Shown in pieces: positions 16,183-18,054 of a stretch of 64,000 bases of DNA. The notes beneath the pieces were generated by a model, which had not been told where the DNA came from, did not search any database, and saw only the letters and a program-made list of their open reading frames with translations. How positions within the stretch are numbered: the stretch's first letter is position 1; each line of letters opens with the position of its first letter. The position numbers and the translations under genes were made by a program. Source of the DNA: the human T2T-CHM13v2.0 reference genome, Homo sapiens; NCBI RefSeq assembly GCF_009914755.1, contig NC_060947.1. One strand, written 5' to 3'.

Positions 16183-18054
16183 ATGAGTCGTGTGTCAAGA
16201 TGCTTATTGACATATGTCACGGTTTTCATCCATCTCACTGAACTGGTACCATTCCTTCTGAAACTATTCCAATCAATAGAAAAAGAGGGAATCCTCCCTA
16301 ACTCATTTTATGAGGCCAGCATCATTCTGATACCAAAGCCGGGCAGAGACACAACCAAAAAAGAGAATTTTAGACCAATATCCTTGATGAACGTTGATGC
16401 AAAAATCCTCAATAAAATACTGGCAAACCGAATCCAGCAGCACATCAAAAAGCTTATCCACCATGATCAAGTGGGCTTCATCCCTGGGATGCAAGGCTGG
16501 TTCAATATACGCAAATCAATAAATGTAATCCAGCATATAAACAGAGCCAAAGACAAAAACCACATGATTATCTCAATAGATGCAGAAAAGGCCTTTGACA
16601 AAATTCAACAACGCTTCATGCTAAAAACTCTCAATAAATTAGCTATTGATGGGACGTATTTCAAAATAATAAGAGCTATCTATGACAAACCCACAGCCAA
16701 TATCATACTGAATGGGCAAAAACTGGAAGCATTCCCTTTGAAAACTGGCACAAGACAGGGATGCCCTCTCTCACCACTCCTATTCAACATAGTGTTGGAA
16801 GTTCTGGCCAGGGCAATCAGGCAGGAGAAGGAAATAAAGGGTATTCAATTAGGAAAAGAGGAAGTCAAATTGTCCCTGTTTGCAGACGACATGATTGTTT
16901 ATCTAGAAAACCCCATCGTCTCAGCCCAAAATCTCCTTAAGCTGATAAGCAACTTCAGCAAAGTCTCAGGATACAAAATCAATGTACAAAAATCACAAGC
17001 ATTCTTATACACCAACAACAGACAAACAGAGAGCCAAATCATGAGTGAACTCCCATTCACAATTGCTTCAAAGAGAATAGAATACCTAGGAATCCAACTT
17101 ACAAGGGATGTGAAGGACCTCTTCAAGGAGAACTACAAACCACTGCTCAAGGAAATAAAAGAGGATACAAACAAATGGAAGAACATTCCATGCTCATGGG
17201 TAGGAAGAATCAATATTGTGAAAATGGCCATACTGCCCAAGGTAATTTACAGATTCAATGCCATCCCCATCAAGCTACCAATGACTTTCTTCACAGAATT
17301 GGAAAAAACTACTTTAAAGTTCACATGGAACCAAAAAAGAGCCCGCATCGCCAAGTCAATCCTAAGCCAAAAGAACAAAGCTGGAGGCATCACACTACCT
17401 GACTTCAAACTATACTACAAGGCTACAGTAACCAAAACAGCATGGTACTGGAACCAAAACAGAGATATAGATCAATGGAACAGAACAGAGCCCTCAGAAA
17501 TAACGCCGCATACCTACAACTATCTGATCTTTGACAAACCCGAGAAAAACAAGCAATGGGGAAAGGATTCCCTATTTAATAAATGGTGCTGGGAAAACTG
17601 GCTAGCCATATGTAGAAAGCTGAAACTGGATCCCTTCCTTACACCTTATACAAAAATCAATTCAAGATGGATTAAAGATTTAAACGTTAGACCTAAAACC
17701 ATAAAAACCCTAGAAGAAAACCTAGGCATTACCATTCAGGACATAGGCGTGGGCAAGGACTTCATGTCCAAAACACCAAAGGCAATGGCAACAAAAGACA
17801 AAATTGACAAATGGGATCTAATTAAACTAAAGAGCTTCTGCACAGCAAAAGAAACTACCATCAGAGTGAACAGGCAACCTACAACATGGGAGAAAATTTT
17901 CGCAACCTACTCATCTGACAAAGGGCTAATATCCAGAATCTACAATGAACTCAAACAAATTTACAAGAAAAAAACAAACAACCCCATCAAAAAGTGGGCG
18001 AAGGACATGAACAGACACTTCTCACTGACTTATGTTTACTATCAATGGCTTTGA
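16183..18054 (+). CDS. 623-aa open chimeric ORF: 19 flank-derived aa + L1 ORF2p ~487-1081 (RT core, thumb, wrist) + 9 flank-derived aa; expression unproven
   Basis: Intact [16 protein letters not shown] and LFADD RT motifs; no EN domain, no CCHC; ATG lies in unique flank with weak Kozak context (tttATGa). Confidence 0.45.
16240..18024 (+). mobile_element. Young L1 (L1HS/L1PA2-grade) internal ORF2 fragment, truncated at both ends, no poly(A)
   Basis: Continuous near-consensus ORF2 from gaactggtacc to gacacttctca; tctcactga duplicated at 16233-16241 and 18020-18028. Confidence 0.96.

What the first reader, a model, noticed from the sequence alone, without database searches (positions are those of the whole stretch)
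16233..18028. Non-classical young L1 insertion: internal ORF2 slice with no poly(A), joined by microhomology inside a 9-bp duplication
Seen: 1785 bp of near-consensus L1 begins mid-ORF2 (gaactggtacc) and stops mid-ORF2 (gacacttctca), with no 3' UTR, no A-tail and no TT/AAAA target. tctcactga is duplicated at 16233-16241 and 18020-18028. Against the recalled L1 consensus (..GAGGAACTGG.. and ..CACTTCTCAAAAG..), the last 2 nt of the left copy (ga) and the first 5 nt of the right copy (tctca) are also L1 sequence. Established: TPRT gives 3'-intact, poly(A)-tailed inserts; endonuclease-independent inserts lack tails and usually delete rather than duplicate target DNA. Inference: a staggered break was patched by copying an L1 RNA/cDNA or an ectopic genomic L1, primed internally at tctca. 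Post-insertion deletion is unlikely because both copies of the duplication abut the L1. The empty allele should read catctcactgacttatg.
Basis: partly seen in the sequence, partly recalled or inferred. Interest (0 to 1): 0.8.

Follow-up and report, generated by a model that had tools for sequence, protein, structure and literature searches.

The report
Tailless L1 slice with 9-bp duplication
A 1.8-kb internal piece of a fairly young human L1 retrotransposon sits on chrX without its tail, between two copies of a 9-base target sequence; it is a clean example of an unusual but already described way for L1 to insert.

Summary
TCTCACTGA occurs exactly at 16233-16241 and 18020-18028. Between the copies lies 1785 bp of L1 (16240-18024), ORF2p residues 487-1081. 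The frame is open and 584 of 595 residues match solved human ORF2p. About 790 nt of L1 3' sequence and the A-tail are missing. Other L1 copies in the same genome confirm the recalled junction sequences: 2 nt (GA) and 5 nt (TCTCA) are shared between the duplication and L1. The target reads CA|TCTC against TT|AAAA.

The insert differs from the 29 nearest copies at 15-19 of 1778 sites. Seven to nine changes are its own (about 0.4-0.5%), so it is probably several million years old. No donor copy was found among 71 examined.

My best reading is reverse transcription of L1 RNA, primed by 5-nt microhomology from a 3'-OH that L1 endonuclease probably did not make. The 5' end was joined by 2-nt microhomology and a 9-nt stagger was filled in.

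The kind is in print: endonuclease-independent insertion, internal priming, and tailless retrocopies with duplications. The empty allele could not be tested here. Interest is low to moderate.

The parts
16233..16241 (.). left copy of the 9-bp target duplication TCTCACTGA
   Evidence: exact match to 18020-18028; chance rate 8.0e-6 per register
16240..18024 (+). L1 ORF2 slice of 1785 bp, ORF2p residues 487-1081, open frame, RT domain, collinear with other copies without gaps
   Evidence: ungapped alignment with 15-19 differences of 1778 to 29 genomic copies
16240..16241 (+). 5' junction microhomology GA, both the last 2 nt of the left duplication copy and L1 sequence
   Evidence: the L1 copies read ..GAGGA|ACTGG in all four upstream variants seen among 29; the base before GA is G in L1 and T in the flank
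18020..18024 (+). 3' junction microhomology TCTCA, both L1 sequence and the first 5 nt of the right duplication copy; inferred priming site
   Evidence: 28 of 29 copies read ..CACT|TCTCA, then AAAG in 27 and GAAG in 1; the window reads CTGA after it
18020..18028 (.). right copy of the 9-bp target duplication
16231..16236 (-). inferred site of the priming 3'-OH on the bottom strand; top strand reads CA|TCTC, 0 of 6 matches to TT|AAAA
   Evidence: the position is inferred from the left edge of the duplication

Best explanation
This is an RNA-templated, tailless L1 insertion at a DNA lesion that L1 endonuclease probably did not make. A bottom-strand 3'-OH ending ...TGAGA-3' paired with the five bases UCUCA inside ORF2 of an L1 RNA. 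Reverse transcriptase, most likely ORF2p, extended it for 1.78 kb. The cDNA end was then joined to the top-strand 3' end ...CTGA-3' through two bases (GA). The two 3' ends overlapped by 9 nt, and filling this in gave the duplication. Shown here: the anatomy, the two microhomologies, the absence of a tail and of an endonuclease-type target, and the membership of the insert in a then near-intact L1 lineage. Inferred: the RNA template, the polymerase, the origin of the 3'-OH and the single-copy empty site.
For: The exact 9-bp duplication abuts both ends, with 5-nt and 2-nt overlaps with L1, which is the geometry expected when two overlapping 3' ends each pair by their last bases. The target CA|TCTC matches TT|AAAA at 0 of 6 positions. 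No A-tail is present, and about 790 nt of L1 3' sequence are missing relative to a full relative. The slice belongs to a near-intact lineage: its frame is open over 595 codons, and it lies 15-19 of 1778 sites from 29 copies, 28 of which are also stop-free in this stretch. That fits an L1 ribonucleoprotein as the source. From recalled genome composition (not measured here), young intact L1 is only a small fraction of genomic L1 DNA, so a DNA-templated event would rarely pick one. Published experiments show RT-dependent, endonuclease-independent L1 insertion at breaks through 1-6 bp microhomology without a need for intact 3' ends (Tao 2022, passages). Sen 2007 found microhomology at both ends of 21 genomic cases (passages).
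Against: Published endonuclease-independent insertions mostly lack duplications and delete target DNA (18 of 21 in Sen 2007). A TPRT-like 9-nt stagger with 3' overhangs is what ORF2p itself produces, so endonuclease involvement is not excluded. No RNA signature is present: no tail, no splice, no transduction. The excess of A>G among the insert's own changes is weak (4 of 9 against a background of 110 of 623, P = 0.058). The empty allele was not seen.
Confidence: 0.45

Rival explanations
1. The chemistry is the same, but L1 endonuclease made both nicks. The first nick fell at a very atypical site and priming occurred internally instead of on the A-tail. This would be the 'internal priming' or 'tailless retrocopy' form of target-primed reverse transcription.
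For: A 9-bp duplication with 3'-overhang polarity lies within the 7-20 bp quoted for L1. Duplications of 9 bp or less are enriched among 5'-truncated L1 (Kojima 2010). Tailless copies with duplications and target-to-RNA complementarity are numerous (Noll 2015). The L1 sequence just past the breakpoint is A-rich, AAAAGAAGA.
Against: The target matches TT|AAAA at 0 of 6 positions, whereas tailless retrocopies show a TT/WAAAAWW target. None of the A-rich L1 stretch is in the insert or matched by the target, and pairing stops after TCTCA.
Confidence: 0.25
2. DNA-templated repair or replication template switching (MMBIR/FoSTeS type; mechanism recalled, not read here). A nascent 3' end left the locus after ...CTGA, copied 1.78 kb from a genomic L1 using 2-nt homology, and returned 9 nt behind its departure point using the 5-nt TCTCA.
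For: This explains the duplication without any staggered break, and both microhomologies fall exactly at the duplication edges. A unique inverted repeat lies about 390 bp upstream (14370-14513 against 15688-15842, 85.8% over 155 nt) and could stall forks. The copy sharing most lineage states (L027) lies 1.19 Mb away on the same strand of chrX.
Against: L027 differs from the insert at three lineage-informative sites (16590, 17749, 18000), so it is not the direct template. No copy of 71 examined shares more than 3 of the 9 insert-specific changes, and those sharing 2 or 3 are at most 98.0% identical overall. A random DNA template would rarely be a near-intact young L1 (inference from recalled genome composition).
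Confidence: 0.12
3. A preformed L1 cDNA or DNA fragment was captured by end joining at a staggered double-strand break, without priming on the target.
For: Class 2 templated insertions and fragment capture at breaks are documented, with microhomology at junctions (Onozawa & Aplan 2016).
Against: Class 2 events are described as lacking duplications. A 5-nt overlap at the 3' junction together with a 2-nt overlap at the 5' junction, both placed at the ends of the 9-nt overlap, is more simply explained by priming.
Confidence: 0.1
4. A canonical tailed L1 later lost both ends by deletion, or the structure is an assembly artefact.
For: None was found. Population surveys do note that some non-canonical elements may be products of later rearrangement.
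Against: Two independent deletions would have to end exactly at both copies of a 9-bp duplication, a match with a chance rate of 8.0e-6 per register. The slice is collinear with other copies without gaps. The flanks are unique in the genome. The insert carries its own substitutions, so it is not a collapsed copy of another locus.
Confidence: 0.03

Closest known systems
Non-classical L1 insertions (NCLI) / endonuclease-independent L1 retrotransposition (Sen et al. 2007, PMC1920257, passages read; Morrish et al. 2002, known only from citations in papers read)
   Same: 3'-truncated, no A-tail, target far from TTTT/A, microhomology between L1 and flank at both ends, and a slice lying in the downstream half of L1.
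   Different: NCLI were defined by the absence of duplications of any length, and 18 of 21 deleted target DNA. This locus has a perfect 9-bp duplication and, by inference, no deletion.
Internal priming (Srikanta et al. 2009, Gene; not held, known through Hancks & Kazazian 2016, PMC4859970, passages) and tailless retropseudogenes (Noll et al. 2015, PMC5322556, passages)
   Same: 3'-truncated and tailless, flanked by a duplication, with the target complementary to the RNA at the 3' end of the insert. Noll et al. counted 5,593 3'/5'-truncated tailless L1 forms with duplications (relaxed screen, data not shown).
   Different: Those events use T-rich endonuclease nicks (TT/WAAAAWW) and A-rich internal priming sites. 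Here the target is CA|TCTC and pairing is on UCUCA, stopping just before the A-rich run.
L1 insertion at Cas9-induced breaks (Tao et al. 2022, PMC9237045, passages)
   Same: RT-dependent, independent of the endonuclease motif, and joined by microhomologies of mostly 1-6 bp.
   Different: That work is experimental and somatic, at defined blunt breaks. No 9-bp duplications appear in the passages read.
Class 2 templated sequence insertion polymorphisms (Onozawa & Aplan 2016, PMC5110952, passages)
   Same: A patch copied from elsewhere, with no tail, no endonuclease site and junction microhomology.
   Different: Class 2 events are defined as lacking duplications of 5 bp or more, and their inserts are usually not L1.
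Non-canonical mobile element insertions in population long-read data (PMC12350158, passages)
   Same: 15.73% (5,523) of polymorphic mobile element insertions are non-canonical. Of these, 1,901 are 3'-truncated and 3,665 lack A-tails.
   Different: That is a catalogue with no mechanism assigned. Whether this locus is in it could not be checked, because the supplement was not readable.

Membership tests
LINE-1 (primate L1PA/L1HS lineage), ORF2 segment | Sequence identity to human L1 ORF2 with the reverse transcriptase domain | tested here: met
   584 of 595 residues identical to solved human ORF2p, residues 487-1081. RVT_1 E = 1.1e-47. 99.0-99.2% DNA identity to 29 genomic copies.
Canonical TPRT L1 insertion | Intact 3' end with A-tail | tested here: not met
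   The L1 ends inside ORF2 at ...CACTTCTCA. About 790 nt of L1 plus the tail are missing relative to L016.
Canonical TPRT L1 insertion | Target resembling TT|AAAA | tested here: not met
   CA|TCTC, 0 of 6 matches.
Canonical TPRT L1 insertion | Target site duplication of about 7-20 bp | tested here: met
   Exact 9-bp duplication.
NCLI (Sen 2007 criteria) | 3' truncation beyond 25 bp, no A-tail, divergence from the endonuclease consensus | tested here: met
   Criteria taken.
NCLI (Sen 2007 criteria) | Absence of target site duplications of any length | tested here: not met
   A 9-bp duplication is present. By that definition the locus is not a member, though it may work the same way.
Internal priming / tailless retrocopy | 3'-truncated, tailless, flanked by a duplication, target complementary to the RNA at the insert's 3' end | tested here: met
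   5-nt TCTCA overlap. Features taken.
Internal priming / tailless retrocopy | Endonuclease-type A/T-rich target (TT/WAAAAWW) and A-rich priming stretch | tested here: not met
   The target is CA|TCTC. The A-rich L1 run AAAAGAAGA lies just outside the insert and is not matched by the flank CTGACTTA.
DNA-templated insertion (MMBIR/FoSTeS type; definition recalled) | Microhomology at both junctions | tested here: met
   2 nt and 5 nt.
DNA-templated insertion (MMBIR/FoSTeS type; definition recalled) | Identifiable genomic template sharing the insert's private variants | tested here: inconclusive
   No such copy among 71 examined. Each genome search scored only 40 of 200 to 4591 candidates, and after millions of years private changes may all post-date the event.
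Any insertion model | Empty allele with a single TCTCACTGA | not testable with these tools
   The flanks are unique in the one genome held. No ape or pangenome sequence is available.

The most novel reading that the evidence does not exclude
A complete, TPRT-like germline L1 integration, with a staggered second-strand break and a preserved duplication, was launched from a 3'-OH that L1 endonuclease did not make. Only 5 nt of internal microhomology were used and no A-tail. Such events fall between the two published screens: NCLI screens discarded anything with a duplication, and internal-priming screens required an endonuclease-type site. They may therefore be systematically under-counted.
Probability: 0.35. 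Interest if true: 0.4.

Novelty: new member of a known kind. Interest (0 to 1): 0.25.

Why it matters
By itself this is one clean, base-resolved example of non-canonical L1 integration. Its modest value is that it combines features the literature usually keeps apart. It has a target unlike an endonuclease site and internal microhomology priming, as in break repair. It also has a perfect short duplication, as in normal target-primed reverse transcription. If the empty allele confirms the structure, the locus would be a useful test case for how L1 reverse transcriptase uses nicks it did not make, and for how such events should be classified in pangenome catalogues. It lies in a gene-free stretch and has no evident functional consequence.

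Tried and rejected
1. Donor search. The whole slice and five sub-stretches carrying the insert's rare variants were searched in the own genome, and 71 copies were compared. The numbers sharing 0, 1, 2 or 3 of the nine insert-specific changes were 27, 22, 21 and 1. All copies sharing 2 or 3 are at most 98.0% identical overall. No donor was found. The searches scored only 40 of 200 to 4591 candidates each, so this is not exhaustive.

2. 'Old-type patch'. One search suggested that 16590, 16613 and 16643 form a 54-113 nt tract copied from an older L1 (L044, 514 kb away). I rejected this. L044 and L045 had been picked because they match that 63-mer, which is selection bias. Among 20 older copies, 16643 is G in 16 and C in only 3. 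16613 G is a lineage state shared with L023 and L027. The 5' 421 nt of the insert are still closest to the young copies, at 3-4 mismatches against 5 or more for the older ones.

3. L027 as donor. This chrX copy 1.19 Mb away shares most lineage states, but I rejected it because it differs at 16590, 17749 and 18000.

4. Paralogous empty site. Both 500-nt flanks are unique in the genome.

5. Breakpoint hot spot. An exact pattern scan found 35 places where ...CACTTCTCA is not followed by AA. Of the 12 inspected, 8 are L1 continuing after small deletions or substitutions and 2 are in non-L1 context. One is a U2 fragment insertion and one is an L1 ending at the same base. The other 22 (35 less this locus and the 12) were not inspected. 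There is no evidence for a hot spot.

6. RNA-editing signature. 4 of 9 changes are A>G and 6 of 9 are A>G or T>C, against a background of 110 and 167 of 623 (P = 0.058 and 0.014). This is too weak to use after several looks at the data.

7. L1 relatives in bacterial genome records. The 13 loci had best-segment identities of 54-76%. They are not close relatives of this human L1 and were not used.

8. Population catalogue. The supplement of PMC12350158 could not be read. Srikanta 2009 is not held. Earlier findings of this scan were not open.

Full report
OBSERVATION. The window reads ...GGTTTTCATCCA TCTCACTGA ACTGGTACC... at 16233-16241 and ...AACAGACACT TCTCACTGA CTTATGTTT... at 18020-18028. 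A script confirmed that the two 9-mers are identical. The same 9-mer occurs three more times in the 64-kb window, on either strand. What matters, though, is its placement at both ends of the insert. In this window a 9-mer equals the 9-mer at a fixed lag of 1500-2100 nt in 43 of 5,348,641 tested registers, a rate of 8.0e-6.

WHAT THE INSERT IS. One frame is open from 16165 to 18054. Translated from 16240 to 18024, the 595 residues align end to end with solved human L1 ORF2p at residues 487-1081 of the 1275-residue chains 8uw3 and 8sxt. There are 11 differences, counted from the printed alignment. Pfam finds the complete RVT_1 domain with E = 1.1e-47. So the slice starts after the endonuclease and the linker that follows it, and stops 194 codons before the end of ORF2. 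In a full relative (L016), L1 continues for about 790 nt past the breakpoint to ...TATAATAAAAAAAAAAAAAG. None of that sequence, and no A-run, is present here. CpG observed/expected is 0.249 in the insert against 0.149 and 0.101 in the 5-kb flanks, which fits a relatively recent arrival.

JUNCTIONS. The genome that holds the window could be searched. Of 4591 first-look candidates for the slice, 40 were scored and 30 loci were returned. One of these is the locus itself, and 29 others were analysed. They align to the insert without gaps and differ from it at 15-19 of 1778 sites. Upstream of the slice, 26 of 29 read GTACAAGGAGGA, and all four variants seen end in GAGGA. Downstream, 27 of 29 read TCTCAAAAGAAGAC, one reads TCTCAGAAGAAGAC and one ACTCAAAAGAAGAC. 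GA (16240-16241) is both the end of the left duplication copy and L1 sequence; the preceding base is G in L1 and T in the flank. TCTCA (18020-18024) is both L1 sequence and the start of the right copy; L1 then continues AAAG where the locus reads CTGA.

TARGET. If the duplication marks the stagger, the priming 3'-OH is on the bottom strand at the left edge of the 9-mer. The top strand there reads CA|TCTC, 0 of 6 matches to TT|AAAA. Both 500-nt flanks are unique in the genome, apart from a local inverted repeat. No paralogous 'empty site' exists, and the pre-insertion sequence CATCTCACTGACTTATG remains an inference.

LINEAGE, AGE AND DONOR. Against the 29 close copies, the insert carries the minority state at 15 sites. 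Six are lineage states shared with 2-11 of the 29: 16613 G, 16776 A, 17166 T, 17504 C, 17513 C and 17798 A. At 17166 the insert has the T that is also found in 19 of 20 older copies. Of the 29 close copies, 18 have C and 5 have G. G gives the glutamate found in the solved L1HS-type protein, by my reading of the codon. The insert therefore belongs to an older branch than the L1HS-like copies. By recalled nomenclature, not tested here, RepeatMasker would probably call it L1PA2 or L1PA3.

Nine changes are insert-specific within that set: 16393, 16590, 16643, 17080, 17217, 17324, 17452, 17541 and 17781. Seven of these are shared with none of the 29. The insert has 7 singletons against 0-6 for the other copies. 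Five of the nine are non-synonymous and four synonymous, as expected without selection. Seven to nine changes in 1785 bp is 0.39-0.50%. With recalled primate substitution rates of roughly 0.5-1 x 10^-9 per site per year, that suggests some 4-10 million years as an upper bound. I cannot say whether the insertion is human-specific.

Searches with sub-stretches carrying these variants found each variant singly in other, more diverged copies. Of 71 copies compared, 27, 22, 21 and 1 share 0, 1, 2 and 3 of the nine. Every copy sharing two or three is at most 98.0% identical overall, mostly because 16590 G is the state of older lineages. No donor is identifiable. L027, on chrX 1.19 Mb away, shares most lineage states. 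It differs at 16590, 17749 and 18000 in a way that would need three coincident reversions, so it is not the direct source.

A FALSE LEAD. One search found two perfect matches to a 63-mer holding three of the insert's rare variants. Both are in copies only 95.7% and 94.8% identical overall. One search showed the insert with the 'young' state at 128 of 131 informative sites and the 'old' state at exactly those three. That looked like a conversion tract or a template switch. It did not survive a wider sample. The two copies had been selected by that very 63-mer. In 20 older copies 16643 is G in 16, C in 3 and T in 1. 16613 G also occurs in two young copies. The 5' 421 nt of the insert remain closest to the young copies, at 3-4 mismatches, and diverge no more than the rest of the insert, which shows 12-14 of 1364. 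I see no evidence of mosaicism.

MECHANISM. The geometry is two 3' ends overlapping by 9 nt. The bottom-strand end (...TGAGA-3') can pair with UCUCA in L1 sense RNA or DNA. The top-strand end (...CTGA-3') can pair through GA with the far end of the copied strand. Extension and fill-in then give exactly the observed structure. This holds whether the template was RNA (reverse transcription at a nick or break) or DNA (a replicative template switch returning 9 nt behind its departure point), so the junctions alone cannot decide between them.

I favour RNA because the copied sequence belongs to a near-intact L1 lineage that was probably active at the time. It has an open frame, and 28 of its 29 nearest relatives are stop-free in this stretch. 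That is what an L1 ribonucleoprotein would supply. By recalled composition, such copies are a small share of genomic L1 DNA, so a DNA-templated event would rarely pick one. Experiments show RT-dependent L1 insertion at breaks without the endonuclease motif, through microhomologies of mostly 1-6 bp.

Who made the 3'-OH is open. The target argues against L1 endonuclease. The TPRT-like stagger argues that ORF2p may at least have cut the second strand. I put a lesion-primed, RNA-templated event at 0.45 and an endonuclease nick at an atypical site with internal priming at 0.25. DNA-templated switching gets 0.12, capture of a preformed fragment 0.10, and later deletion or artefact 0.03.

COMPARISON WITH WHAT IS KNOWN. 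Sen et al. 2007 defined 21 non-classical L1 insertions by four criteria: 3' truncation, no tail, no endonuclease site and no duplication. [quoted passage not shown] This locus meets three criteria and fails the fourth. The same group's internal-priming paper is not held. As summarised in a review, it concerns A-rich internal sequences pairing with the T-rich overhang of an endonuclease nick. This locus has the duplication but neither the T-rich nick nor A-rich pairing.

Noll et al. 2015 describe tailless retrocopies with duplications and target-to-RNA complementarity, with a target consensus of TT/WAAAAWW. They mention 5,593 3'/5'-truncated tailless L1 forms with duplications under a relaxed screen, with the data not shown. 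A long-read survey of 1,019 people classes 15.73% of polymorphic mobile element insertions as non-canonical; 1,901 of them are 3'-truncated and 3,665 tailless. The kind is therefore in print, and this is a well-resolved member with an uncommon combination of features. For all these papers I read passages found by term search, not whole texts.

LIMITS. No ape, pangenome or read data were available. The supplement that might list this locus as a polymorphism could not be read. Genome searches score only a subset of candidates. The subfamily name and substitution rates are recalled.

VERDICT. The locus is a new member of a known kind, with interest 0.25.

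Noticed in passing
window 14370-14513 and 15688-15842: Inverted repeat pair, 85.8% identical over 155 nt (94% over 101 nt), with arms about 1.17 kb apart. It is found nowhere else in the genome. Its right arm ends about 390 bp upstream of the L1 insertion site. 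It could be a fork-stalling structure, but no link to the insertion is shown.
   Followed up: partly
window 51855-53041 (- strand) and 46091-46180 (+): Old, decayed L1 ORF2 remnants, 30-53% amino-acid identity to the young slice (64% DNA identity over 949 nt). These are ordinary ancient L1.
   Followed up: no
L092 (G000:C2:96586001-96589018), around the pattern match at C2:96587501-96587518: Inside another L1 ORF2, at the same L1 position (...CACTTCTCA|AAAG), sits a roughly 30-nt fragment matching the 5' end of U2 snRNA in antisense, flanked by a 16-nt duplication GAACAGACACTTCTCA. Rfam gives U2 at 42.8 bits, below the gathering score of 46, with E = 8.5e-8; only the first 30 or so model positions match convincingly. 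It looks like a tailless U2 retrocopy of the kind Noll et al. describe.
   Followed up: partly
L094 (G000:C4:93626086-93629103): Another L1 whose homology stops at exactly the same base (...CACTTCTCA). It is followed by TTTTTAAAACCGTC... with no further L1 within 1.5 kb. Whether this is a second tailless insertion or an L1 interrupted by a later insertion was not examined.
   Followed up: no
window 16393-17781 (nine insert-specific substitutions): The spectrum is skewed: 4 A>G, 2 T>C, and 1 each of G>C, CpG C>T and T>A. Against 623 singleton changes in 65 other copies (110 A>G, 57 T>C) this gives P = 0.058 for A>G and 0.014 for A>G plus T>C. An RNA-editing trace is conceivable, but the evidence is too weak.
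   Followed up: partly
window 16165-18054: The open frame runs 75 nt upstream and 30 nt downstream of the L1 slice into unique flank, 629 codons from stop to stop. There is no evidence that it is expressed, and I read it as chance read-through.
   Followed up: no
L001-L013 (bacterial and archaeal genome records): Thirteen short contigs filed under bacterial or archaeal genomes encode L1-like ORF2 segments with best-segment identities of 54-76% to the human slice. They look like animal DNA contamination in those assemblies.
   Followed up: no
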